From: Escherichia phage vB_EcoP-101114BS3 | Direction: 5' to 3' (one strand) | Length of the DNA: 64,000 bases | Sequence record: MZ234015.1 | Shown here: in pieces, positions 4,395 through 60,114 of the stretch | Layout of the letters: each line of letters starts with the position of its first letter | Numbering within the stretch: the stretch's first letter is position 1 | Made by a program: the position numbers and the translations under genes | The notes under the pieces: model-generated | Databases searched by the model: none | Told to the model about the DNA's origin: nothing | What the model saw: only the letters and a program-made list of their open reading frames with translations

Positions 4395-7300
4395 ATGGCT
4401 AATTTAAAATCGTGGGAAGAAGCTTCCAAAGCTCCTGCGTATCTGAACGCCTCTCCAGAGCAACAGGCTCAAATGAGAGAACAATACAAGGCAGCAGGGG
4501 GCACTATTCCTGAGACTCAACCACAAGAGCAACCACAACAAGAAGAACGAGGTGCTATTGGGGAGTTTGCTCAAGGTGTGTCTAACGCTCTTCAATCAGG
4601 TGGTGCTAACATTGCAGCTAGTGCTGCTAAAGGTTTAGGTGGGCTGGTAGAGATTGGTGAAAACTTAACTGGTTCGGAAACAAGCTATGGTAAGCGCATT
4701 CAAGAGAACTCTAAACAGTTGCTGGAAGAACGCTTATCTAAGATAGAAGATGGTTTTGGTAAAACAGCTGGTCAGTATGCTGGTGTTGCTGCTGATATTG
4801 GTTTGACAGTTGCAAACCCTGCTGTTGCTGCTGCTGTTATCGCAGCTCGTGAAACAGGTCGTGCTTATGCTGATCAAACTCCTAAAGAAGATGAAGATAA
4901 ATCAGTCTTAGATGCTGCTCTTGTTGGTGGTGCTAACTACGCTGCTCAGAAGATCCTTCCGGGCATGACTGGTACAGCTTCTACTACTCTTGGTCGTGTA
5001 GGACAAAGCGTAGCCTCTAACGCAGTTGCTGGTGCTAAGGGTGGTGCTATTGTTGGTGCTGCTGAAGCTCAGAACAAATATGGGGATGACACTACTCTAG
5101 CTAACGTATTAGAAGGGGCTATTGAAGAGGGTGCACTCGGTGCTGCTTATGGTGGGGCGATTGGTGGGGTTCATGGGTTAATAAGCCGTCCTAGCCCTCA
5201 AGTGTTTGATCGTACTCCTGAGCATGTTAAGACTGACATTGCTGCTGAAGATGAGGCTATTCGTAAAGCTGCTAACGCTGATGAACTTCGTGAAGCCTAT
5301 GCTAAAGCTGAGAATGCTAATGCTGCCTCTGCTTTAAACCTTCTGGATGAAAATGGTTTCCGAATCACAGATGCAGTTGCTATGGACTCTCCTGCTGTTC
5401 AGCGTATATTAAATACAGACCAAAGTCGTGCAGAGAAAGCTGCTACGGTTCAGAAAGATAGCTCTAATGTTCCCGGTCTCAATCCTCTCGCTTCTCCTAA
5501 GAAGACTCAAGGTAAAGCTTTTGCTGACAATGAGTACAACCAGAAACAAGCTGTGGCAATGAAAGATGCAATGGCTGACTACACTAAAGATAACACCAAA
5601 GCCCTTACTGATGTTCTAGACAACCTAGACCGAGAGTTAGTAGCTCTGAGAGCAAGTGGTGATTTTACTGGTAGTGCTATTGACATTAAAAACCGTACTC
5701 AAGCTGATCGTGATTTTATTGATGCTTATAAAACTTTTTACAGTGAAGCTAATCGTTTCAAAGCTCGTGATGGTGAAGACCTAAACAACTTCATTGATAA
5801 AGCTACTCAGTTGCAGAAGCTATCTGAAAATGTTTCTCCAGAAATGAAGAAGGCCATTGGTGGATTAAAGAAACTAAAAGGTATGCCTGAAGGTTTTAAC
5901 CCTATCCAAGATGCTTTCACTCTGAATAATACAGCTAAGTTCATGAGTAACCAAGACCGTGGTTGGACCTCTCTGACTGATGACGGTTTTCGTGAAGCTC
6001 CGGCTCCTGTGTTAGTTAAGAATCCTCTCGGTGCAGCCAAGTATGTACTTAACCGCTTTACTTCCGATCGTGCTCGTGCTCAACGTGAGAAGCAACAGTC
6101 AGCTAATAGTGAAGCTATCCGCTCTTTGGCTAGGGCTGATTTAGAAGTACAACGAGCTAGGACTCAGGCTGAAGAAGCAAGAGCAAAAATGGAAGAAGAA
6201 CCAACCACAGAAGACATCAAATTCCGTACTCAAAATGATGCACCTTCCGAACCGGTTCGTGAGGAGCCTTCTGCTACTACTGTGACGGAAGAAATTCCGT
6301 CCTCTCCAGCTCCAACTGAAACACCTCTTACTGCGAGGGATTTGGTTGCTCAAAGACGTGCTCTCCAACAAGCAGAGCTTAGACGTCAAGAAGCTGAAGC
6401 TGCTCAGGCTCAAGAAAGTGCTACACCAGAACCTGAACCACAGCAAGAAGCTCTTACAGCTAGAGAATTAGTAGCTCAGCGTAGGGCTGTAGCAGAGGCT
6501 AAGAAACGTCAAGAGGCAGAAGAAGCAGAACGTGCTAAAGAAGCTCCTGAGGAAGCCGTAGAAGAGCCTAAAGAGAAACCTGAGCCATTACCTGCTCGTG
6601 CTCCTAAAGCTCCTGAGAAGGCTCCTGAGCCTGTTAAACCGTCACTTGGTGTAGAGCGTCTAGCTTCTATGTCAACTGCTGCTCGTCAAGCAACGAAAGA
6701 CCGTGCTGATCGATTTGCTCGTTCTTTGTATTCGGCTGCTGCTAAAGCTAAAGCCACTGCGGAAAATTTCCTTTCTTACAAGGGAGATCCTAAAGAGCTT
6801 ATGCGTCGTATCCGTCAGGAAGACCAAGCAAACAACACACAGCGTCATGAAGAGATGGCTAGAAACCAACTAGCTTCACAGCAAGGCATTGCTTCTGCTA
6901 AATCTCAACATGTTCGTGCTTCTTTTGCTGATTGGGTGAAAGAACGTGGGTTGCCTTCTGATATTGCTACTAAGGCTTTACGGGCTGAAGAGAAAGGTTT
7001 AGGTGGGAACGTCACAAGTCTAGATTCACTGAAGCGAAGAGCTGAGCGTTTATATCAGAAACAAAGAGATGATGAGTTTGACCGTCTCTATCGAGAGGCT
7101 CTGGAAGAGAATAAAGCTTTTGATAAGAGAGATGCTCCTAAACTGGTAGACCAGAAGAAAGAGCTTCAGGATGAAATTGGTGCGTTGCTTGATGCTGAAC
7201 CGTTACGTCCTGCTCAGAAAGATGCTATGCGTAGGATTATGGAAGACTTCGTGGAGAGTAAGTTTAAATCTTCAGAGAAAGCTGGAAGGGTTGAGGCTTT

Positions 7301-11897: not shown

Positions 11898-12122
11898 TTA
11901 AACTACACAGAATAAATACATTGCTGTTTCAGGGGAAGGTATGTGGTCACTAGGATATCTAACCCTAATCCACTCATCATCTTCTGCTACATAATAAGCC
12001 CAATAAGACCCATTTTCATTAATAAAGAACTTGAAGGTACAACCAAAGATTTGGTTATTGTGTTCCCATACTGCATGAAACTGAGTAACACCTTCTGGTA
12101 TTGTAAGTTCCGCTCTGATCAT
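11898..12122 (-). CDS. Hypothetical protein
   Basis: 74-aa ORF in operon context. Confidence 0.5.
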   Translation of the reverse strand: MIRAELTIPEGVTQFHAVWEHNNQIFGCTFKFFINENGSYWAYYVAEDDEWIRVRYPSDHIPSPETAMYLFCVV

Positions 12123-12379
12123 TGTATTCCTCTCTCCTTTAGAGCTTTAAGCAAACCGTTGTGGTTAGCGGCACAGGTTGTATAAGTGTCCTGATACCAC
12201 TCGAGTGTTGTTGCAAGTGCTACTCCCTGTCCACTCTGAAGTAAAGGGAGGTCTACATCACATTCAGCTTTTAGGTTTGTTGGTAAGGGCATTAGCTGCC
12301 TGCTGTTGTCGCTCGTTGAACAAGCTGACATACTCATCACTAGCACACACATTGTAAAAAACTGGCTTAGTCTTTTCAT
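12119..12379 (-). CDS. Outer-membrane lipoprotein, o-spanin (Rz1-like) candidate
   Basis: Signal peptide with lipobox-like MSMSAC and Pro-rich mature part; overlaps the 3' end of the upstream TM/coiled-coil gene in another frame. Confidence 0.5.
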   Translation of the reverse strand: MKRLSQFFTMCVLVMSMSACSTSDNSRQLMPLPTNLKAECDVDLPLLQSGQGVALATTLEWYQDTYTTCAANHNGLLKALKERGIQ

Positions 12380-30271: not shown

Positions 30272-30469
30272 TTACCTTTTGTTTAAAATTTCTTTTGTAC
30301 AAGAAGTCCCGTTACACACGAGAACTGTTTGAGTTATAGAATCGACAACTGTTACATGGCTGCCGCATTGAGTTATGATTTGACCTCTCCCTGAATCTTT
30401 AGAGATGCATTCATCAGCGGCGATCGCTGACACACTGAATAAGGAGAGGAAAAATAGAATCTTTTTCAT
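30272..30469 (-). CDS. Small secreted Cys-rich protein
   Basis: Signal peptide MKKILFFLSLFSVSAIAA followed by 6 Cys in ~45 residues. Confidence 0.5.
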   Translation of the reverse strand: MKKILFFLSLFSVSAIAADECISKDSGRGQIITQCGSHVTVVDSITQTVLVCNGTSCTKEILNKR

Positions 30470-49201: not shown

Positions 49202-50113
49202 TTATGCTGCCTGTTGGCGTGCTGCCATGATTTCGGCAGCTTTGCGCAACACTTCTTCTTCTTCCTGCGCAGCTTTCTCGTTCGCTTTGATAGTTGAAGC
49301 ATTTGAGATGCGACCACGAAGGTTAGACAATTTTTCAGTCATTTCGTTGATCGCTTTTTCCATTTCATCAGCGTATGAGTCCAGAGATTCAAGCTCTTTA
49401 GTCGAGGCATTAATCAGGTAGTCGTCGCTGATAGATACAGTTGATGCGGTCACTTTCTTAAGGAGTGAATCGAAAGTTTTCTTAACTTTGCCTACTTCTT
49501 CACTCAATGCGATAGTATTGTCAGAAGATGCGCCGTTGCGTTCATCTGCCAGTAGTGCCGCTTCAATACGGATTGCAGCCAGACGGTCAACCAGTGCATA
49601 AATATCCTGATTAAAGTTTTCGTTAACCTTCTGGTTGATTTGATTTGCTACCGGAACATTGTCGTTGCAACCTTTGTAGAATGCTGGGTTATCAACCTGC
49701 ACGTCTTCACCTTTAGCAAAGCGTTCAAAGGAATTAGACCAGCGGGCGCGGTTTTGTTCCATTTTGGCCTTAACTTGTTCCGGTTTAGCATCCTCTTTCG
49801 CTTTCGCTTCACCTTCCAGATTAATCCATTTCTTTTTACCGTTCGCCCCGTCAGTGTTATATTTGATAGGAGTAAGGAAAGAGATTGCAACCGAAATTAC
49901 ATCTAAATCACGATAACGCTCAGTTAACAAGAAATCAACCGCCGCCTGCAATACATCCAGTTTCTTACCGTTGGTGCGGAAGTGCTGCAAATGGCCTAAC
50001 AGGAAGTTAGAAACATCTTGTTTGATTGCCGCGTTGTTGCTACGAATGTTGTTAGCCAGTGCATTAAAGCCGGATTCGTTAACCAGATTAAAAACTTTAG
50101 CCATGATATTCAC
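49202..50113 (-). CDS. Hypothetical protein (303 aa), first gene of the minus-strand block
   Basis: Long ORF with helical charged C-terminus; upstream region has a perfect 12-bp inverted repeat and a GAGCGGGGCA hairpin motif. Confidence 0.65.
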   Translation of the reverse strand: MNIMAKVFNLVNESGFNALANNIRSNNAAIKQDVSNFLLGHLQHFRTNGKKLDVLQAAVDFLLTERYRDLDVISVAISFLTPIKYNTDGANGKKKWINLEGEAKAKEDAKPEQVKAKMEQNRARWSNSFERFAKGEDVQVDNPAFYKGCNDNVPVANQINQKVNENFNQDIYALVDRLAAIRIEAALLADERNGASSDNTIALSEEVGKVKKTFDSLLKKVTASTVSISDDYLINASTKELESLDSYADEMEKAINEMTEKLSNLRGRISNASTIKANEKAAQEEEEVLRKAAEIMAARQQAA

Positions 50114-50171
50114 CTTTCAATTGTAAGGGCACTATGCCCCGCTCTCTATGAGCTTTTTAAGTCACTATTGA

Positions 50172-50211
50172 CTTATCAATAATCACTCAATATCAAGTAA
50201 TTATTGATAAG
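50172..50211. repeat. Perfect 12-bp inverted repeat (CTTATCAATAAT ... ATTATTGATAAG) with 16-bp spacer; operator-like
   Basis: Read directly from sequence; lies 60-100 bp upstream of the start of 49202-50113. Confidence 0.6.
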
Positions 50212-50920
50212 CGAGGCGGTCTTATCAGGAGTTAACCTTGCCGCCTCCTTATCCGTGATGTTTCATCTGGTATCTTTAATTAGTCGCTATAAATAAAGCC
50301 GACCTGATAGCGATGATCAATCATCACAATAAGGCAGTGCGTCCGACTCTATTTAATTACTTTATCGTAACCGTCGGCAATATCGTCTACTTTGCTTTCG
50401 CTCCCGCCTATCCTTTTGTACTAACTCTCAATCGCTAACCATCGCCCACTACGGGAGGTTATTGCGAAAGAGTCATTAGCCGTCTAATACATTGACGTTT
50501 TATATCTTTCAGCAGGTTTACTACATAAACTGATTATGTACGCCATCAATAGTGGCCTCAAATCATTCACATCGTAAACGTTCACACTAAACCTTATTGT
50601 TAAATAGCAATTTGCCACTTTTTAACCATTCACCGCCGCCCCCAATTGGGCGTTAATTCGTCGGATTTGCCTACCCTGATAAACTTCTTTCACTGTAGCA
50701 CCTTGTTAGCGATGGCCGCCGCTACCCTTTAACCGTGGGCGATTAGTTTAGGCCGTTGCGTGTACTCAATGAATCCGTTTTATCAGTGGTGACGTTTCCA
50801 GTTAAGGGATTGTAAAAACTGTTTACCCTGATAATTTAGGGAGTCTTACGCCGTTTTATCTGGTATGTTTTCCGATGGTTATTATCATCCAACATATTCA
50901 ACCGATATAGGAGAATGTTT

Positions 50921-50937
50921 AAATTGTTAAAGAGCGG
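50921..50937 (+). repeat. AAATTGTTAAAGAGCGG exact 17-mer (copy 1)
   Basis: Identical 17-mer at 51288-51304; related TTAAAGAGCGGTG at ~51158 and TTAAGCGGT at ~50997 and ~51124; inverted GAGCGGGGCA variant at 50127-50150. Confidence 0.55.
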
Positions 50938-51287
50938 TAAATCTATCAGTGTGCTTTCTCACACTATGCAACTGTTAGCCGTTGTTACGCTTTTCTTAAG
51001 CGGTGAATTGCTTAAGTGTGCTCATTATGAATCATGCTGTTTTAGCTGTCAACCGCTTTTTTAATCTTTTTCGTCGTTCCCTTTATTGGGAGGATATATC
51101 AATCAGCTATATTTGATTGAAGATTAAGCGGTAAGGCTTAACTCACGATTCATATTTTTAAAGAGCGGTGTTTCTTACTGCTTGGTGAACATTCTATCAG
51201 AGTATTTCACCTTGTCAACTCTTTTTATCATCTTCTTTTATTCTATTCCCTTATCTCGCTTGAATCTATGCGAAAGGGCAAGATGAT

Positions 51288-51304
51288 AAATTGTTAAAGA
51301 GCGG
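51288..51304 (+). repeat. AAATTGTTAAAGAGCGG exact 17-mer (copy 2), followed by GGCAC-TAA-GTGCC hairpin
   Basis: See 50921-50937. Confidence 0.55.
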
Positions 51305-51439
51305 GGCACTAAGTGCCGGATGTTTCAAGTCATCGCTGACCGTGTGAACATCTTATCATAATGATTCGATGTGTCAACAACTATTTTTCGATTAATGCAT
51401 CTTGATAAACTAGCGACCGTTAAGGCCGCTAACCTTACC

Positions 51440-51679
51440 TTAGTTCATACGTTTAAAGGTTAAATCTTTATCTGTACTTACCAGCGATAACACCGCAATA
51501 GCTTTGCCTTTATCGGCATCGGCTACCATCTCTTTTGCCTGCTGTAATGTACTACCGACTATTCTCATAATCATGTTAGTAACGTTAATGCTAGTGCAAG
51601 TGATTTGCGTGTCTTTGCTTGAGAAGGTGTAGATGTTCATTGATAAATCCTCGTTATGGCATGGTTGAGAGTTTATCAA
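51440..51679 (-). CDS. Hypothetical protein
   Basis: 79-aa ORF; start uncertain. Confidence 0.4.
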   Translation of the reverse strand: MINSQPCHNEDLSMNIYTFSSKDTQITCTSINVTNMIMRIVGSTLQQAKEMVADADKGKAIAVLSLVSTDKDLTFKRMN

Positions 51680-51952
51680 GATACACTAATCGAATTATTA
51701 AAGAGCAAGGCTAAACATCTAGCCTATCAGGAGGTAACTTACTGCATCACGTCCTGATAAGATTCAATATACACTATCCTAAAACCGTTGCAAGTCTTTT
51801 TCTAAAATAATTTCACTTTCTTTTAGGCATAAAGGAACGAACACACGAATAACATCAAGGGAGGAAGAAAACAAGCTCTATAATCGAAATCTAGGCACAT
51901 AGGAAGCATCCTAGCGAGCTAAACAGGGGCAAGATGTGCAATCACCTTAGAA

Positions 51953-51980
51953 ATGAAAAAAGCGCCTCAAAAGGGCGCTT
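51953..51980 (-). terminator. Rho-independent terminator
   Basis: Minus-sense AGCGCC...GGCGCU hairpin followed by U5, after the stop of 52000-52371. Confidence 0.55.
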
Positions 51981-51999
51981 AGAGAGTCTTACGGATTGG

Positions 52000-52371
52000 T
52001 TACGGATTGGTGCAAGTGCCGTTACCGGATGATATTTCGTTCATCGACTCATCGAACAACGTCATGCTAGACCGCATCATGTGATCTATAGTGATTTGCT
52101 TTCCGGTAATTTCGTTAACAAGCATTGCAGACTTACTATCAACTATCTTGCTGTCGTAGTCGTTCAGGTCAATCAATACTACCTTGCTGGACTTCTTGCC
52201 AGTGTCGTAGTTTTCCATAAGATAGGTGCATTGCAGACCATCTAAACTAGCCTCGTTGAATACGGCAGCATAGGACACGGAAGAAATAGCGAACAAAGCA
52301 GAACATACAGCTAATTTAATTTTCATGATCCAACCCTTAAGCGGAACGTGCAACAAAGAAAAACAAGTCAT
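52000..52371 (-). CDS. Secreted protein (signal peptide)
   Basis: MKIKLAVCSALFAISSVSYAAVF signal-peptide-like N-terminus. Confidence 0.5.
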   Translation of the reverse strand: MTCFSLLHVPLKGWIMKIKLAVCSALFAISSVSYAAVFNEASLDGLQCTYLMENYDTGKKSSKVVLIDLNDYDSKIVDSKSAMLVNEITGKQITIDHMMRSSMTLFDESMNEISSGNGTCTNP

Positions 52372-52418
52372 AGATAAATGCTATGATACAGAGAACTAAC
52401 AGACAATGCAAAAAATAC

Positions 52419-52691
52419 TTATGTAACATTACTCACCACTTTATCTAGATGATCATCGAACGTTTCACAAATGGATTGCACTTCGTCAATATCTAGTAAC
52501 AGACCGTGACGGGCAAAGAATTGAGCTAACTCAAGATAATCCGCACCAATAAGCATGACACCATTGAAAGGGGCGATCTTAACATCTTGAGATGTTACCA
52601 ATAATAAATTACCAATATCAGCAATAGCGTCATAATTCAGCGTAACGCCTACACCGTAATTGTGTGTTTCAATAATGGCAATAGTTTCCAT
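52419..52691 (-). CDS. Hypothetical protein
   Basis: 90-aa ORF; N-terminus resembles that of 52694-52942. Confidence 0.45.
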   Translation of the reverse strand: METIAIIETHNYGVGVTLNYDAIADIGNLLLVTSQDVKIAPFNGVMLIGADYLELAQFFARHGLLLDIDEVQSICETFDDHLDKVVSNVT

Positions 52692-52693
52692 CG

Positions 52694-52942
52694 TTAATTA
52701 TCCTCGACGGTTAGTAGTTCTTCCAGTGACAAACCGGATTTAACCAGCAAATCACGATATTCGTTAGCATCCATCGGATCGAGGCCGGATAATCGGGCAA
52801 CGGTCATGCGTGCATGTGCTGAAGACAAGGAAGCTAAAGCACGGATAGGGATCAATACAAGCCCATATTTACCGCTGATAACTAAATCACCGTGCTGGAT
52901 GCACATATGAGCATTTACTACGATTGCAAATGATTCATTCAC
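52694..52942 (-). CDS. Hypothetical protein
   Basis: 82-aa ORF. Confidence 0.45.
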   Translation of the reverse strand: MNESFAIVVNAHMCIQHGDLVISGKYGLVLIPIRALASLSSAHARMTVARLSGLDPMDANEYRDLLVKSGLSLEELLTVEDN

Positions 52943-53499
52943 TGGATAGCCTCACAATTAGCAAAGTTAATAAAGGTTGTATAAACTGCTACACCGTCAT
53001 GATATGCAGTCGTAGCGAGTATGGTTTCACTTACATCACCATAGCTAACGAGATTAGTTACAAACTGTAATTTCTCTTTCTCAACCTTCTGATACAGAGA
53101 ATACGTCACCATATCGTGATCACTATCAGCACGTTTCAATTTAATGACTGACTGAGTGCCGGATTTCTCGCCCAATGGGGTAAGAGTGACACGCACATTA
53201 GCGGTAGTGACTTCATTGAAGTGAACACGCCAGAATGCATCATTGCCATCACTTCCAACGTCACGGCAAGCCATATCAGGAGCGTTCTTAAATGTGCTAA
53301 CAAAAGATTGCAGACCAGTAGGAGCGGATAACCTCTTATCATCTTTAGCCTGCACATTGGTAGCGATAGCACTAACACCGATAGCTGCAACCAGTGCATA
53401 AGACGCTAGATTGATAGCCTGCATTGCTTTGATAGCCATTATTACTACTCCTGATAGATGAAAGATTGTTTGTCGTGTGTAGTTACTTAGGCTGATCAA
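52939..53499 (-). CDS. Secreted protein (signal peptide)
   Basis: Hydrophobic signal-like segment LASYALVAAIGVSAIATNVQA after an N-terminal extension; start uncertain. Confidence 0.5.
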   Translation of the reverse strand: MISLSNYTRQTIFHLSGVVIMAIKAMQAINLASYALVAAIGVSAIATNVQAKDDKRLSAPTGLQSFVSTFKNAPDMACRDVGSDGNDAFWRVHFNEVTTANVRVTLTPLGEKSGTQSVIKLKRADSDHDMVTYSLYQKVEKEKLQFVTNLVSYGDVSETILATTAYHDGVAVYTTFINFANCEAIQ

Positions 53500-53720
53500 C
53501 CTTCACTACTCACTATCACCGCTAACTACTTTACATCACTGCTTCATTAACGATAATTCAAACTACGATTGCAACTATATATTAAAGGAAAAACATGTCA
53601 ACCACTTATTTTCAAACTCTTTCATAACTCACTGAATATAAAAGGAATTTAATTTACTAAACTTTCTTACTCAGAGATACAGCTTACCAAATAGATGTTA
53701 TTTTATAACACTTACAGAAC

Positions 53721-53815
53721 GGGTAGCAGACCAACGGGATAGATAGATGGGTAAGACGTGCCGCATAGGTTAGCCAATGGGTAAGAAGCCTAACGAGGAA
53801 GGGGAAACGGGTAGG
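53721..53815 (+). repeat. ATGGGT(A/G)-type direct-repeat cluster I
   Basis: ACGGGTAGC, ATGGGTAAG (twice), ACGGGTAGG within 95 bp, all on the plus strand. Confidence 0.5.
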
Positions 53816-53884
53816 ATATAATGTAAGTTAGTTACAGGTAACAGGTCAGACCATGCGGTAATAAATTACCAGTCAAATTCCTAC

Positions 53885-53960
53885 TCATCAAAAGAAAAAA
53901 GAAACGCTGAAAAAAGAAAAGAATAAAAGAAAGAATAAAAATAATAACTAAAGTAAACAA
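53885..53960 (+). other. A-rich polypurine tract (AAAAGA-type reiterations)
   Basis: ~70 bp almost purely A/G on the plus strand between repeat clusters I and II. Confidence 0.5.
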
Positions 53961-54180
53961 CTACCAGTCTAATGATACATACATCAATAATCCACTCATG
54001 AAACATTAACATAGGTTATTACTATTAAACTTGGGGTAGTGTGAGGATTGTTATAATTGCATGGTGTTACCATTACTAACCTCACTATGATAGCCCTTAC
54101 TATTAGCCCTCTTATTATCACCCCTTAACAGTACATCAGAGTCTAGCCTTTCATCCTTCCTTAACATGAGTAGAAGAAAT

Positions 54181-54265
54181 ACGGGTGGGATATTACTGGT
54201 TAGATATACATGGGTAAATAATGCATGTGTAATATCAATGGGTAGGGTATTTATGGGTAGGGATA
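54181..54265 (+). repeat. ATGGGT(A/G)-type direct-repeat cluster II
   Basis: ACGGGTGGGATA, CATGGGTAAATA, AATGGGTAGGGTAT, TATGGGTAGGGATA in 85 bp. Confidence 0.55.
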
Positions 54266-54453
54266 CCACTGGTAGCAGGTAGGGCAAGGCTTAGAGCTTA
54301 AAGGCTGATTGATTTCCTAAAGGCAATTGCATTGGTAATAACCCTTTTTTAAATGAGGACTCCCCCTTTTTAGGAAACGCGCTCGGAGAGGCTAGGTCCA
54401 TCCGGTCAAATTGAAATTTTAAACTGTTATATATAAGCATAAGGAATAACTTA

Positions 54454-56197: not shown

Positions 56198-56263
56198 TAG
56201 GAATAGAGGGGAGGGTTCTTTTCGCGAGGGATCTCTCCCTTTTTTATTTTATTGGAGGAATAT

Positions 56264-57805
56264 ATGTCGTTAGATAAAGAAATCTATGAAGCTCTAACTG
56301 GAGACAAGTTGAGTATAGAGGAAAAGAAAGCTTTGCTCAATATGTTAAAAGAAAGGGACCAGTGGAGAAAATATAACAAGATGTTGGCTTTTAAAGCTTA
56401 CGACTTTCAGAAGAAATTCTATGCAGCAGGGTTGAAGCATCGCTTTCGATTCCTGTGCGCAGCTAACCGTGTTGGTAAATCTTACAGCGAGGCATACGAG
56501 TTTGCTTGTCATGTCACAGGTCGCTATCCAACTTGGTGGACAGGTTACAGATTTAATCGACCTATATTGGCTTGGGCAGTAGGGATTACAGGGGACTCTA
56601 CAAGAAAGGTATTGCAAAAGGAGTTGTTTGGAACACCTATCGGAAAGGATATGAATCTAATAGGAACAGGTGTTATTCCTCGTGATGCTATCGTATTGGA
56701 CACGATAGAACGAGATGGGAACAAATTACAGATTGTACAAATTAAGCATCAAAACGCGAGAGGCGAGTTTGACGGTTTAAGTACATTAGAGTTCCGTTCT
56801 ACCCAACAGGGTGAACATACATTGATGGGTGCTACAGTTGATTATATTTGGCTGGACGAAGAAGATCCATATGAATCTATGGCAATCTTCTCTCAGTGCG
56901 TAACACGTACACTTACAACTAAAGGTTTAGTTACTATTACAGCTACACCAGAGAACGGTTTAACAGAGCTGGTGGATAAGTTTATGAAAGGTGAAGGAGA
57001 TGAGAACACAGGTTCTCTGTATTTCCAGAATGCTTCTTGGTGGGATGCTCATGTAGATTTAGGTGGACATATCACTGACCAAGATATTAAAGACATGACT
57101 GAAGGTATTCCAACATGGCAGTTAGAGATGCGTTCAAAAGGTATGCCGTTGCTTGGTTCTGGTTTGATTTATGATGTATCAGATGACATGATTAAGTGTG
57201 ATCCCTTTGAGATACCTGATACGTGGAAACGTGTTTGTGCTATTGATATTGGTATCGATCACCCGACAGCCGCTGTTTGGACAGCATATGATGCTAACAC
57301 TGATACGATTTATGTTTATGACTGCTATAAAGAAGGTGGGTTTACTCCGGTGTACCATGCACCAGCTATTAATGGTCGTGGTCAGTGGATTCCAGTTATT
57401 CTTCCTCACGATGCCGATAATATTGAGAAGGGAAGTGGTTCGTCTGTTGCTCAATTCTATAAGAATGCAGGGGTTAATGTACAGAGTGAGACCTTCTACA
57501 ACAAGATTGGAATGGATGGTAAGAAGAACTTCTTTGTAGAGCCGGGAATTACTGATATTCGTGAACGTATGATGTCAGGTCGTTTTAAAATCTTTAACAT
57601 TGCTTCGTGTGCTAAACTCTTTGAAGAGAAAGCTCGCTATCACCGTAAGGTTGGCAAGATTGTTAAGGAACATGATGACTTGATGGATGCTATGCGATAT
57701 TCAGCTTGTTCTGTAACACATCGTGGACGTAGTAAGCATGATGCTAGTTATGGTAGTTCATCGCTTTATCAAGACAATATTAACAGATGGAATCAGACCT
57801 ACTAA
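56264..57805 (+). CDS. Terminase large subunit
   Basis: ATG at 56264 with GGAGG SD; Walker A-like LCAANRVGKSY in the N-terminal ATPase region; gene order terminase-portal-scaffold-capsid. Confidence 0.7.
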   Translation: MSLDKEIYEALTGDKLSIEEKKALLNMLKERDQWRKYNKMLAFKAYDFQKKFYAAGLKHRFRFLCAANRVGKSYSEAYEFACHVTGRYPTWWTGYRFNRPILAWAVGITGDSTRKVLQKELFGTPIGKDMNLIGTGVIPRDAIVLDTIERDGNKLQIVQIKHQNARGEFDGLSTLEFRSTQQGEHTLMGATVDYIWLDEEDPYESMAIFSQCVTRTLTTKGLVTITATPENGLTELVDKFMKGEGDENTGSLYFQNASWWDAHVDLGGHITDQDIKDMTEGIPTWQLEMRSKGMPLLGSGLIYDVSDDMIKCDPFEIPDTWKRVCAIDIGIDHPTAAVWTAYDANTDTIYVYDCYKEGGFTPVYHAPAINGRGQWIPVILPHDADNIEKGSGSSVAQFYKNAGVNVQSETFYNKIGMDGKKNFFVEPGITDIRERMMSGRFKIFNIASCAKLFEEKARYHRKVGKIVKEHDDLMDAMRYSACSVTHRGRSKHDASYGSSSLYQDNINRWNQTY

Positions 57806-57870
57806 AAATAGGGGAGGCTTTGTCCTCCCTTTAGTAGTTCCTTCCAAGCTATCACCGAGGGAGAGATTAG

Positions 57871-60114
57871 ATGGCTAAGAAGAAATTTAGTGAAGATGTT
57901 TTGGATGAATTACGCGTTGACCTTCAACGTCGATTCAATTATGCTCAAGGTTATGTAGACTTAGCTGTAAAAGGCTATGCTCGTGAGGCTTGGGAATACT
58001 TCTATGGGAACCTTCCTGCTCCAGTTACTGCTGGTAGCTCTAGTTGGGTAGACCGTACAGTATGGGAATCAGTGAATGGTACGCTCCAAGATATCATTAA
58101 CGTGTTCTGTTCTGGTGACGAAGCGGTAACTTTCGTAGCCGATAACCAAGAAGATAGTGATGCTGCTGACGTAGCCACTAAACTTGTCAACCAAATTTTG
58201 TTACGTGATAATCCGGGATACAATATTATCTCTTCAGCGGCACAAGAGTGTCTGGTTACACGTAACTCTTTTATTAAATATTATTGGGATGAACAAACTT
58301 CTACCCAAACAGAAGAAGCAGAGGGTGTTCCTCCGGAAGCTTTGGCTGCATATGTCCAAGGTTTAGAAGCTGGTGGGCTTCAAGATTTAGAAATCTTTAC
58401 CACTGACAACGAAGATGGTACAGTGGATGTTAAAGTAACTTACAAACAAACAGTAAAACGCGTTAAAGTAGAATATGTTCCTTCAGAACAGATTTTTGTT
58501 GACGAACATGCTACCTCTTTTGCAGATGCTCAGTATTTCTGTCATCGCACACGTAAATCTAAAGAAGATCTGGTTGCTATGGGCTTCCCTAAAGATGAAA
58601 TTGAAGCTTTTAATGACTGGACTGATACAATGGACACCACTCAATCTACTGTTGCATGGTCACGTACTGACTGGCGTCAGGATATAGATTCAGATATCGG
58701 TGTAGACACTGATGATATCGCTTCTATGGTTTGGGTTTACGAGCATTACATCCGTACTGGTGTACTGGATAAGAATAAAGAAGCAAAACTCTATCAAGTT
58801 ATTCAAGCAGGTGAGCATATTCTCAGTTGTGAAGAAGTAACTAGCATTCCTTTTGTAACATTCTGCCCTTATCCTATTCCGGGTTCATTCTATGGACAAT
58901 CTGTTTATGATATCACCAAAGATATTCAGGATTTGCGTACCGCTTTGGTTCGTGGTTATATCGATAACGTAAACAATGCTAACTATGGTCGATATAAGGC
59001 GCTTGTAGGCGCGTATGACCGTCGTTCTTTGCTAGACAACCGTCCGGGCGGTGTAGTAGAAATGGAGCGTCAGGATGCGATTGATCTCTTCCCTTACCAC
59101 AATCTACCTCAGGGTATTGATGGCTTACTAGGAATGTCAGATGAGTTGAAAGAGACTCGTACTGGTGTTACTAAGCTTGGTATGGGCATTAACCCTGATG
59201 TGTTTAAGAATGATAACGCATATGCAACTGTTGGATTGATGATGAATGCTGCTCAGAACCGTCTCCGTATGGTCTGTCGTAACATTGCTCACAACGGTAT
59301 GGTTGAATTGATGCGTGGTATTTATAATTTAGTCCGAGAAAATGGTGAGGTTCCTTTACAAGTACAAACCCCTCGTGGTATGGTTCAGGTTCATCCTAAA
59401 CAACTGCCTGCTCGTCACAATCTACAAGTTGTTGTAGCTATCTCTCCTAGCGAGAAATCAGAACGTGCACAGAAACTCATTAGTCTGAAGCAATTAATTG
59501 CTGCTGATGCTCAGTTAGCACCTCTGTTTACTCTGGAGCAAGATCGTTACATGACTGCACAGATCTTCGAGTTGATGGGAATTAAAGACACTCACAAATA
59601 CTTAATGCCTCTGGAACAGTATCAACCGCCAGAACCTTCTCCGATGGAAATCCTCCAGCTTGAGATGACTAAAGCACAGGTTGAGAACGTACAGGCTTCT
59701 TCTCAGAAGATGATTGCTGATGCATTCGACCAGCGTGAACGTACTACGTTTGAACAGCAGAAAGCTGCGGACGAGTTCAGCTTACGTCAAGAAGAACTGC
59801 AATTTAAGCAAGAGAATGCTGCTGATCAGATGACTTTGGAGAATCGTAAAGAAGACAACAGTGCTACACTTGAACAGGCTAAGCACAAGTTGGCTCTGCT
59901 CCAGCAACAGGTCCGTCAGTATGAATCTGTACTTAAAGAATTGCAGATGACTCTTAACCATCAGGTTGATGTTGAGAAAGTTGCAAATCAGGCTAAAATT
60001 CAAGATAAGACTTTGGAACTCCAAAAGAAAGAAGCAAATGAAACTAAGAAAGAACAGCAAAGTTCAATCAAAGATTCACGGATTCCTAACCGTCGTCTTG
60101 GTAGTAGAAAATAA
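57871..60114 (+). CDS. Portal protein (with C-terminal coiled-coil extension)
   Basis: 747-aa ORF in the canonical position between terminase and scaffold; assignment is positional. Confidence 0.55.
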   Translation: MAKKKFSEDVLDELRVDLQRRFNYAQGYVDLAVKGYAREAWEYFYGNLPAPVTAGSSSWVDRTVWESVNGTLQDIINVFCSGDEAVTFVADNQEDSDAADVATKLVNQILLRDNPGYNIISSAAQECLVTRNSFIKYYWDEQTSTQTEEAEGVPPEALAAYVQGLEAGGLQDLEIFTTDNEDGTVDVKVTYKQTVKRVKVEYVPSEQIFVDEHATSFADAQYFCHRTRKSKEDLVAMGFPKDEIEAFNDWTDTMDTTQSTVAWSRTDWRQDIDSDIGVDTDDIASMVWVYEHYIRTGVLDKNKEAKLYQVIQAGEHILSCEEVTSIPFVTFCPYPIPGSFYGQSVYDITKDIQDLRTALVRGYIDNVNNANYGRYKALVGAYDRRSLLDNRPGGVVEMERQDAIDLFPYHNLPQGIDGLLGMSDELKETRTGVTKLGMGINPDVFKNDNAYATVGLMMNAAQNRLRMVCRNIAHNGMVELMRGIYNLVRENGEVPLQVQTPRGMVQVHPKQLPARHNLQVVVAISPSEKSERAQKLISLKQLIAADAQLAPLFTLEQDRYMTAQIFELMGIKDTHKYLMPLEQYQPPEPSPMEILQLEMTKAQVENVQASSQKMIADAFDQRERTTFEQQKAADEFSLRQEELQFKQENAADQMTLENRKEDNSATLEQAKHKLALLQQQVRQYESVLKELQMTLNHQVDVEKVANQAKIQDKTLELQKKEANETKKEQQSSIKDSRIPNRRLGSRK

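What the first reader, a model, noticed from the sequence alone, without database searches (positions are those of the whole stretch)
51440..53499. Accessory-looking cluster of signal-peptide proteins inside the switch region
Between the two noncoding stretches lie five minus-strand ORFs, two with clear signal-peptide-like N-termini (52000-52371; 52939-53499), with their own terminator at 51953-51980. Exported proteins in an early region are candidates for superinfection exclusion, receptor masking or other envelope-directed host modification.
Basis: partly seen in the sequence, partly recalled or inferred. Interest (0 to 1): 0.45.

Follow-up and report, generated by a model that had tools for sequence, protein, structure and literature searches.

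The report
First early operon exporting two beta-barrels
These are real genes: the first early operon at the right end of a phiEco32-like E. coli phage, found in nearly all its relatives. It is predicted to send two small beta-barrel proteins of unknown function into the host cell envelope, and it is swapped as a block between otherwise near-identical phages.

Summary
The window is phage vB_EcoP-101114UKE3 (Suseptimavirus, phiEco32-like). All five minus-strand ORFs are real genes, but two starts were set too far upstream (correct: 53439 and 52326). Four of them (A-D) are homologs or positional counterparts of phiEco32 gp128-gp125. They form one unit: a near-consensus sigma-70 promoter (53601-53574), then A-B-C-D, then an intrinsic terminator (51980-51960). 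The fifth gene, E, lies behind that terminator with its own promoter.

A and D have signal-peptide-type N-termini and an invariant cysteine pair. AlphaFold2 models their mature parts confidently as small meander beta-barrels. There are no relatives outside this phage group and no match to any characterised family. The public "terminase" label on D is an annotation error.

The cluster is not accessory: A occurs in 93 and D in 86 of about 98 related phage records. It exists in two very divergent alleles exchanged as a block. IME267 is 95-99% identical to the window from 7.9 to 51.3 kb and loses similarity almost entirely between 51306 and 53571. Only E (12 records) is accessory.

Export and early expression are predicted, not shown. 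A role in superinfection exclusion or envelope protection is the best guess (about 0.3-0.35). Interest is moderate.

The parts
53574..53601 (-). Promoter P_A: TTGACA, 16-nt spacer, TATAGT (11 of 12 consensus positions)
   Evidence: Invariant in SU7, Bas86 and PAS59 apart from two spacer positions, one in SU7 and one in PAS59. The region also aligns with the sequence upstream of phiEco32 gp128 and with IME267 at 78-85%. SU7 and 4E8 annotate a promoter at the same place.
53440..53567 (-). 5' leader of gene A, about 128 nt, with no boxA
   Evidence: About 99% identical among SU7, Bas86 and PAS59, although gene A itself is only 91-95% identical. In TH43 it is replaced by 415 nt that encode an N-terminal cytoplasmic domain.
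52939..53439 (-). Gene A, 166 aa, homolog of the C-terminal half of phiEco32 gp128. N-terminal hydrophobic segment (signal peptide or signal anchor) followed by a periplasmic 8-stranded beta-barrel.
52694..52942 (-). Gene B, 82 aa (GTG start overlapping the stop of A). Small acidic protein with no export signal detected; positional counterpart of gp127.
   Evidence: Third-position substitution bias. 89-91% identical among type-1 phages. Only weak profile similarity to gp127: E 0.008, 52 columns. No family match.
52419..52691 (-). Gene C, 90 aa, homolog of gp126. Very acidic (net -11, pI 4.1), with no export signal detected.
   Evidence: BLASTP against gp126: 40% identity, E 4e-16. phrog_16976, unknown function. 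Charge.
52000..52326 (-). Gene D, 108 aa, homolog of gp125. Canonical 20-aa signal peptide (MKIKLAVCSALFAISSVSYA|AVF) followed by an 88-aa beta-barrel.
51960..51980 (-). Intrinsic terminator that ends the A-D unit
   Evidence: SU7 and 4E8 annotate terminators at the same place. phiEco32 has a different stem sequence followed by a T-run at the same place.
51766..51793 (-). Weaker sigma-70-like promoter (TTGCAA, 16-nt spacer, TATATT) upstream of gene E
   Evidence: 9 of 12 consensus positions.
51695..51706 (-). boxA-like element GCTCTTTAATAA between that promoter and gene E
   Evidence: It belongs to a series of five such elements at 50597-51706.
51440..51640 (-). Gene E, 66 aa, basic, no signal peptide. 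The only truly accessory gene; it travels with the type-1 allele.
   Evidence: Only 12 phage records carry it. All 8 differences from TH43 are at third codon positions. Absent from phiEco32 and 4E8. No family match.
51306..53571 (.). Exchanged block: the stretch that is replaced in IME267, a phage otherwise almost identical to the window
   Evidence: Window and IME267 are collinear at 95-99% identity from 7926 to 51305, apart from one 1-kb stretch at 85.5% and small gaps. Inside 51306-53571 only two short patches align: 52019-52242 at 70% and 53369-53440 at 83%.

Best explanation
This is the right-end, first-transcribed early operon of a phiEco32-like podophage, corresponding to phiEco32 gp128-gp125.

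Host sigma-70 RNA polymerase starts at a near-consensus promoter a few hundred bases inside the genome end. It transcribes A-B-C-D and stops at an intrinsic terminator. This unit carries no boxA antitermination signal, unlike the promoters further downstream.

A and D are inserted through the Sec pathway. D is released by signal peptidase as an 88-aa disulfide-bonded beta-barrel. A places a 135-aa beta-barrel in the periplasm, either released or held on the inner membrane by an unusually conserved transmembrane helix. B and C are small acidic proteins with no export signal, so presumably cytoplasmic.

The four genes evolve and are exchanged as one block with two deeply divergent alleles.

Inferred function: the exported barrels act in the envelope straight after infection. 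Most likely they block genome delivery by, or envelope damage from, later-arriving related phages. That is superinfection exclusion of the T4 Imm/Spackle or T5 Llp kind, carried out by unrelated proteins.

Shown here: gene reality, operon signals, conservation, allelic exchange, predicted folds. Inferred: export, cleavage, disulfides, timing in this phage, and the function.
For: - Genes are real: third-codon-position substitution bias.
- Operon signals: promoter and terminator. The same layout is described for SU10 and phiEco32, where these genes belong to the early class. Early and middle genes of this group run opposite to the late genes.
- Position: the cluster lies next to the physical genome end.
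- Signal peptides: D's two alleles have unrelated hydrophobic N-termini, yet both end in an AxA-type cleavage motif followed by Ala (SYA|A and VKA|A). A's two alleles both keep an AxA-type site after the helix.
- An invariant Cys pair sits in each mature part.
- Confident beta-barrel models for both mature parts.
- Only about 3% of candidate ORF starts in the window pass the same crude signal-peptide rule.
- The family is confined to E. coli and Shigella phages of this group.
- Block exchange of two alleles between genomes that are otherwise 95-99% identical. This pattern is typical of genes that interact with the host or with competing phages.
- These phages use the O-antigen, and apparently conserved LPS-core motifs, as receptors.
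- The known exported early proteins of virulent coliphages, T4 Spackle and T5 Llp, are exclusion factors (PMC7677548, PMC9586334).
Against: - There is no experimental evidence for export, cleavage or expression in this phage, and no SignalP-type predictor was available.
- No sequence or fold similarity to any known exclusion protein. The barrels match only generic de novo, lipocalin, Gid4 and Cap15 barrels.
- A's hydrophobic core is under amino-acid-level purifying selection: 4 synonymous and 0 non-synonymous changes in 14 codons, against 3 and 16 in the next 20. In long forms a 125-aa domain precedes it. Both points fit a permanent membrane anchor better than a disposable signal peptide.
- Within each allele selection is plainly purifying, with no sign of an ongoing arms race.
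- Two of the four products have no export signal, so the operon is not purely envelope-directed.
Confidence: 0.4

Rival explanations
1. The exported barrels are host-takeover or anti-defence factors rather than exclusion factors. They would bind or inhibit a periplasmic or envelope component of E. coli, such as a protease, a nuclease, LPS or O-antigen assembly, a lipid or lipoprotein carrier, or an envelope-based defence. The acidic cytoplasmic proteins B and C would handle cytoplasmic defences, for example as DNA-mimic restriction inhibitors.
For: - Lipocalin-, LolA- and lipid-binding-type barrels and the PliC lysozyme inhibitor are among the fold matches.
- The family is restricted to E. coli and Shigella phages.
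- Two alleles could track variation in a host target.
- C has net charge -11 and pI 4.1.
- First-expressed genes at the entering end are often anti-defence genes, as with T7 gene 0.3 (my own knowledge).
Confidence: 0.3
2. The operon controls lysis timing or senses superinfection, like T4 RI/RIII. A would be a membrane-tethered periplasmic domain with a weakly hydrophobic, possibly releasable anchor, working with small cytoplasmic partners on the holin.
For: About half of A's helix (INLASYALVAAIGVSAIATNV) is Ala, Gly, Ser or Thr, and its sequence is conserved. One periplasmic and two cytoplasmic small proteins mirror the RI and RIII topology (my own knowledge of T4).
Against: The lysis genes lie far away: a spanin-like ORF is near 12.1-12.4 kb. 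RI's periplasmic domain is helical (my own knowledge), not a barrel. No homology was found. Both alleles of A keep AxA-type cleavage motifs.
Confidence: 0.1
3. The N-terminal hydrophobic stretches do not lead to export of functional domains, and the cluster is a set of ordinary small early proteins with no envelope role. Alternatively, D is a packaging protein, as the public annotation says.
For: Export is only predicted. D is labelled 'terminase' in many records through phrog_13168.
Against: D has a textbook n/h/c signal peptide and a conserved Cys pair. The cleavage motif is kept even though the N-terminal sequence was replaced between alleles. No terminase domain was found in Pfam or NCBIfam. 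The true large terminase (Terminase_6N and 6C) and the portal are at 56252-60114.
Confidence: 0.05

Closest known systems
phiEco32 gp128-gp127-gp126-gp125 (SU10 CDS125-122): early right-end transcription unit of Kuravirus phages
   Same: Direct homologs or positional counterparts in the same order. A matches the C-terminal half of gp128 (42%), C matches gp126 (40%), D matches gp125 (64%), and B sits where gp127 does. The sigma-70 promoter upstream and the terminator downstream match the description given for SU10 and phiEco32.
   Different: The window carries the other, deeply divergent allele. It lacks the 125-aa N-terminal cytoplasmic domain of gp128 and carries the extra gene E. No function, export signal or fold is mentioned for these proteins in the SU7 and SU10 papers searched for those terms; no paper in the searchable library combines phiEco32 with gp124, gp125 or gp128.
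T4 Spackle (Sp) and Imm: early, envelope-located superinfection exclusion proteins of a virulent coliphage (PMC7677548)
   Same: Early expression. Export by an N-terminal signal. A small periplasmic or membrane protein acting on incoming phage. This is the proposed working analogy.
T5 Llp and T1/phi80 Cor: early outer-membrane lipoproteins that block the receptor FhuA (PMC9586334)
   Same: Small, exported, disulfide-containing early proteins of virulent coliphages that protect the infected cell and its progeny.
   Different: A and D have no usable lipobox. D's LAVC at residues 5-8 is too close to the N-terminus and is absent from the other allele. The receptors of this group are the O-antigen and apparently the LPS core, not a protein channel. 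No homology.
Calycin / lipocalin-like 8-stranded meander beta-barrels (bacterial lipocalins, the PliC/MliC lysozyme inhibitors and avidins among them)
   Different: Under 15% identity and no conserved lipocalin signature motifs. hhalign finds no relationship even between A and D. This is a resemblance in fold class only.

Membership tests
Sec / signal peptidase I secreted proteins | Positively charged n-region, hydrophobic h-region, and a c-region with small residues at positions -3 and -1 | tested here: met
   D: MKIK / LAVCSALFAISSV / SYA|A. A: MAIK / AMQAINLASYALVAAIGVSAIA / TNVQA|K. These come from a rule-based scan. The motif is kept in the other alleles: VKA|A in D and AIA|S in A. No SignalP or DeepTMHMM was available.
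Sec / signal peptidase I secreted proteins | Actual translocation and cleavage | not testable with these tools
   This needs PhoA fusions, N-terminal sequencing or mass spectrometry. For A, cleavage is doubtful because the helix is conserved at the amino-acid level and is internal in the long forms.
Bacterial lipoproteins (Llp / Cor type) | Lipobox [LVI][ASTVI][GAS]C at the end of a signal peptide | tested here: not met
   A has no Cys near its signal peptide. D's only candidate, LAVC at residues 5-8, precedes the h-region and is absent from the type-2 allele.
Known superinfection exclusion proteins (T4 Imm/Sp, T5 Llp, Cor, Sie families) | Sequence or structural homology to a characterised exclusion protein | tested here: not met
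Known superinfection exclusion proteins (T4 Imm/Sp, T5 Llp, Cor, Sie families) | Early expression and envelope location | tested here: inconclusive
   A sigma-70 promoter and terminator are present, and the literature places the homologs in the early class. Location is predicted only.
Known superinfection exclusion proteins (T4 Imm/Sp, T5 Llp, Cor, Sie families) | Exclusion phenotype when expressed alone | not testable with these tools
   Requires plating, adsorption and ejection assays.
Lipocalin / calycin superfamily | Eight-stranded up-and-down antiparallel beta-barrel | tested here: met
Lipocalin / calycin superfamily | Conserved sequence motifs or profile-level homology | tested here: not met
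   No Pfam lipocalin hit even at E up to 1. Identity to the structural matches is 3-14%.
Terminase (the label attached to D through phrog_13168) | Terminase ATPase/nuclease domains or small-subunit DNA-binding domains, and a cytoplasmic location | tested here: not met
   D has a signal peptide and a beta-barrel, and no terminase model matches it. The true large terminase is at 56252-57805.
SAR (signal-anchor-release) proteins / T4 RI-type antiholin | N-terminal transmembrane domain rich in Gly/Ala/Ser/Thr, not cleaved, releasable from the membrane | tested here: inconclusive
   About 48% of A's helix is Ala, Gly, Ser or Thr, and the helix is conserved. AxA-type sites follow it in both alleles. 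Release cannot be tested here.
Accessory (moron-like) gene cluster | Patchy presence among close relatives and atypical composition | tested here: not met
   A is in 93 and D in 86 of about 98 related records. A-C have normal GC and CAI. The test is met only for E, which is in 12 records.

The most novel reading that the evidence does not exclude
The A-D block is an exchangeable 'exclusion-type' cassette. Its two alleles would define mutually compatible or incompatible groups among co-circulating Gordonclarkvirinae. A membrane-anchored and a soluble periplasmic beta-barrel of a new family would block genome delivery by rivals. The co-inherited acidic cytoplasmic proteins, C in particular, would be the missing restriction inhibitors behind this group's unexplained resistance to restriction-modification systems.
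Probability: 0.12. Interest if true: 0.6.

Novelty: new variant of a known kind. Interest (0 to 1): 0.35.

Why it matters
Gordonclarkvirinae are common, broad-host-range, restriction-resistant coliphages that are being considered for therapy, yet their early biology is almost unstudied. This work pins down their very first transcription unit as a conserved four-gene block with two alleles that exports two new beta-barrel proteins. That gives a concrete, cheap experiment for exclusion or anti-defence functions: express either allele in an O-antigen-positive K-12 host and plate the BASEL phages Bas86-94. It also corrects a widely copied 'terminase' annotation.

Tried and rejected
- Family searches. 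Pfam, PHROGs, NCBIfam and PADLOC on all five proteins and on the long form of A gave no informative family. PDB sequence profiles gave nothing at E up to 1.
- Database searches. The 5.8-billion and 1.84-billion-protein searches found only orthologs from this phage group.
- Paralogy. hhalign finds no relationship between A and D, or between B and C.
- B against gp127: only weak similarity, E 0.008.
- Rfam on 49-55 kb: no family.
- The N-terminal domain of long-form gp128-like proteins. Its homologs are the N-terminal halves of roughly 215-aa proteins on Klebsiella phage-like contigs, also of unknown function.
- A Spackle-like scenario. I looked for a virion lysozyme or transglycosylase in the two largest tail-region ORFs, and Pfam found nothing.
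- The two key phiEco32 papers (PMC3275717, PMC2587145) are not held in the library.
- Rejected: the longer starts at 52371 and 53499, the lipoprotein reading, the terminase reading, and foreign origin inferred from composition.
Full report
IDENTITY AND SETTING

The region 50100-54200 is 100% identical to Escherichia phage vB_EcoP-101114UKE3. This phage belongs to Suseptimavirus in the Gordonclarkvirinae, the phiEco32-like prolate podophages. The public records of this phage, SU7 and PAS59 end at window positions of about 54197-54211. The annotated terminal repeat of 4E8 maps to roughly 54.1-54.4 kb. The 'switch region' is therefore where the two physical ends of a linear, terminally redundant genome meet in a permuted sequence.

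The cluster is the first set of genes inside the right end. The large terminase (56252-57805) and the portal (57871-60114) lie on the other side, on the plus strand. In this phage group the early and middle genes are transcribed opposite to the late genes, and the early cluster is the most variable part of the genome.

THE ORFs

The five minus-strand ORFs exist, and all five are genes. Against SU7, Bas86, PAS59 and TH43, substitutions pile up on third codon positions:

- A: 3/2/27 (codon positions 1/2/3)
- B: 6/4/14
- C: 9/5/22
- D: 6/2/15
- E: 0/0/8

Two small overlapping ORFs (51779-51874 and 52337-52429) show no such bias.

Two starts need correcting. D begins at ATG 52326 (MKIKLAV...). The upstream ATG 52371 is put out of frame in Bas86 by a 1-nt deletion. 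A most likely begins at ATG 53439, 9 nt after AGGAG. Short-form orthologs of the other allele start at the equivalent codon, with the same AAA GCA ATG CAG in IME267. With these starts the hydrophobic segments are truly N-terminal.

HOMOLOGY

- A matches the C-terminal half of phiEco32 gp128 (42% identity, E 7e-33).
- C matches gp126 (40%).
- D matches gp125 (64%).
- The next large gene downstream (49202-50113) matches gp124 (80%).
- B sits where gp127 does, but shows only weak profile similarity to it (E 0.008).

None of the five proteins matches a Pfam, NCBIfam or PADLOC model. PHROGs places A and C in families of unknown function, and places D in phrog_13168, which carries the label 'terminase'. 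That label has spread to many records. It is an error: D has a signal peptide and no terminase domain, and the real terminase is elsewhere.

Searches of 5.8 billion and 1.84 billion proteins found only orthologs on contigs of up to about 79 kb, consistent with phages of this group.

EXPORT SIGNALS

D has a textbook signal peptide, MKIK-LAVCSALFAISSV-SYA|AVF. In the other allele the N-terminus is a different sequence altogether, MWFIKFVVKTVVGFFLVVLLLGVLLSAMGSVKA|ATF. It still ends in an AxA-type site followed by Ala at the same alignment position.

A reads MAIK-AMQAINLASYALVAAIGVSAIA-TNVQA|KD. The other allele keeps the helix and has ...SDKAIA|SP.

Each mature part has exactly two invariant cysteines, one in the first strand and one at the C-terminus: A C58 and C162, D C33 and C105. 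That fits periplasmic disulfide formation.

A crude rule-based test passes only 22 of 650 candidate ORF starts in the window, most of them spurious ORFs, and it passes both A and D. I had no SignalP-type tool, and export is not demonstrated.

One complication concerns A. The core of its helix, NLASYALVAAIGVS, is invariant across alleles that are otherwise 42% identical. This is selection on the protein, not recent gene conversion. Between the window and phiEco32 the 14 codons carry 4 synonymous and 0 non-synonymous changes, including TCT versus AGT for serine. The next 20 codons carry 3 and 16.

In long forms (phiEco32 gp128, TH43) a 125-aa lysine-flanked domain precedes the helix. Long and short forms both occur in both alleles, and the junction lies inside the helix-coding stretch. 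A may therefore be a bitopic inner-membrane protein (a signal anchor) rather than a released periplasmic protein.

FOLDS

AlphaFold2 models both mature domains with confidence.

- A: pLDDT about 79-95 over residues 41-166, one helix and eight strands.
- D: pLDDT about 95, seven strands.

DISTRIBUTION: CORE, NOT ACCESSORY, BUT ALLELIC

tblastn finds A in 93 and D in 86 phage records. All but three are named Escherichia or Shigella phages, and about 98 records match the region at DNA level.

Sixteen records carry the window's allele (type 1, at least 80% protein identity), and the count is the same for A and for D. The rest carry the phiEco32 allele (type 2: A about 42%, D about 63%).

Allele does not follow genome relatedness. 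IME267 (same genus), 4E8 and ECBP2 are 95-99% identical to the window at 20-26 kb, yet they carry type 2.

A direct comparison with IME267 shows collinear identity of 95-99% from 7926 to 51305, apart from one 1-kb stretch at 85.5% and small gaps. Similarity is then almost completely lost from 51306 to 53571, where only D's 3' part (70%) and A's helix-coding stretch (83%) still align. It returns at about 85% over the promoter region. The left break falls next to a boxA element and the right break next to the promoter's -10 element. Conserved regulatory sequences therefore flank the exchanged block.

Gene E is present in only 12 records, all among the records carrying the window-type region, and is the one truly accessory gene. 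GC and codon adaptation of A-C are normal for the genome. D and E have high GC3 and CAI about 2.5 sd below the mean, which is weak evidence for such short genes.

EXPRESSION LOGIC

P_A (TTGACA, 16-nt spacer, TATAGT) is followed by a leader of about 128 nt, then A-D, then a hairpin with a T-run at 51980-51960. phiEco32 has a different stem followed by a T-run at the same place, and SU7 and 4E8 annotate the same elements. The SU10 paper describes the same layout: one promoter upstream of the terminal genes, a terminator after them, and three sigma-70 promoters in the spacer, 'like phage phiEco32'.

The A-D unit has no boxA. Behind the terminator, each promoter of the spacer is followed by CGCTCTTTAA(C/A/T)AA. 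The copy at 51291-51302 sits in a 21-nt stretch identical to the E. coli rrn leader boxA.

A-D therefore form a discrete early unit that stops at its terminator. E and everything downstream appear to be read by polymerase modified for antitermination. Shut-off by a gp79-type inhibitor of sigma-70 transcription is expected from the literature on this group. I did not check that here.

FUNCTION

What is shown: a conserved first-early operon with two alleles, encoding two predicted exported beta-barrels and two small acidic proteins that lack any export signal.

What is inferred: a role in the envelope immediately after infection. I rank the possibilities as follows.

1. Superinfection exclusion or envelope protection, about 0.3-0.35. 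The characterised exported early proteins of virulent coliphages, T4 Spackle/Imm and T5 Llp, do this. The unit is expressed first and briefly. The family is specific to one host genus. Block exchange of deeply divergent alleles suits a trait that interacts with competing phages.
2. Binding or inhibition of a host envelope component or defence, about 0.3. B and C might counter cytoplasmic defences. C is extremely acidic, and the group's resistance to restriction is unexplained.
3. Lysis-timing control of the RI/RIII kind, about 0.1.

None of these can be settled by computation. The experiments are listed under next steps.

NOVELTY

The genes and the operon layout are already in the literature as 'hypothetical' early genes. 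The SU7 and SU10 papers contain no mention of a signal peptide or transmembrane segment, and no paper in the searchable library combines phiEco32 with gp124, gp125 or gp128. New here are the predicted export, the two beta-barrel folds, the conserved transmembrane helix, the block exchange of two alleles with mapped boundaries, and the correction of the 'terminase' label. If the proteins are exclusion factors they would be a new family of a known kind. Interest is moderate.

Noticed in passing
window 50597-51706, minus strand (boxA-like copies at 51695-51706, 51291-51302, 51155-51166, 50924-50935, 50597-50608; promoters at 51793, 51377, 51218, 51052): Tandem near-consensus sigma-70 promoters are each followed by an rrn-type boxA (CGCTCTTTAACAA). 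Six matches occur in the window, five of them here, where 1.15 are expected by chance for the whole window. One copy sits in a 21-nt stretch identical to the E. coli 16S leader boxA, which is present in all 5426 E. coli genomes at a median of 7 places. The design is conserved in phiEco32 and 4E8. It suggests these phages borrow the host's rRNA antitermination system for early transcription. No paper in the library links boxA with phiEco32, and the 7-11 paper says the antitermination strategy 'remains to be defined'.
   Followed up: partly
window 52000-52326 (D); also type-2 B genes in 4E8 (L004 4006-4272) and IME267 (L010 45347-45610): D is annotated 'terminase' in many public records through phrog_13168, and type-2 B is annotated 'DNA polymerase B region' or 'polymerase'. 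D's label is contradicted by its signal peptide and beta-barrel and by the true large terminase at 56252-57805. I did not test B's label beyond finding no Pfam hit for gp127.
   Followed up: partly
window 53440-53567, minus strand: The 5' leader of gene A is about 99% identical among SU7, Bas86 and PAS59, while the coding sequence behind it is only 91-95% identical. In TH43 it is replaced entirely by an N-terminal domain. Possibly a regulatory RNA element; unexplained.
   Followed up: no
window 50114-50920, minus strand: About 800 nt with no annotated gene in phiEco32, SU7 or Bas86 lie between the last promoter-boxA unit and the gp124-like gene. The sequence looks highly conserved in phiEco32 when read side by side, and contains one more boxA-like site at 50597-50608. 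Rfam finds nothing. It could be a structured leader or a non-coding RNA.
   Followed up: no
window ~53600-54400: A low-GC (36%) non-coding stretch at the physical genome end is rich in repeated TACCC and CTACCC motifs. Public records end at about 54197-54211, and annotated terminal repeats of relatives map here. This is probably the terminal repeat and packaging region.
   Followed up: partly
window 52419-52691 (C): C is extremely acidic (net -11 over 90 aa, pI 4.1) and is conserved in both alleles. It is a candidate DNA-mimic or other anti-restriction protein in a phage group reported to resist restriction systems without any known inhibitor.
   Followed up: no
L006 (TH43) 4831-5245; L007 (phiEco32) gp128 residues 1-125; L008 6001-6657: Long forms of A carry a 125-aa N-terminal domain. 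It is 51-58% identical to the N-terminal half of roughly 215-aa proteins on contigs from other sources; the one context examined is a Klebsiella phage-like contig next to a Dam methylase and many small genes. This is a mobile early-protein module of unknown function. Long and short forms occur in both alleles.
   Followed up: partly
window 30272-30469 (-) and 12119-12379 (-): Two more small ORFs have export signals. The first is a 65-aa ORF starting MKKILFFLSLFSVSA|IAADEC. The second is an 86-aa ORF starting MKRLSQFFTMCVLVMSMSAC, with a lipobox-like MSAC, which may be the outer-membrane spanin (IME267 annotates an Rz-like spanin in the corresponding part of its genome).
   Followed up: no
window 52383-52412, minus strand (between C and D): A conserved promoter-like site (TTTGCA, 18-nt spacer, TATCAT). 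The TTGCATTG and GTATCAT parts are invariant in five phages although the surrounding spacer varies. It may be an internal promoter for D.
   Followed up: no
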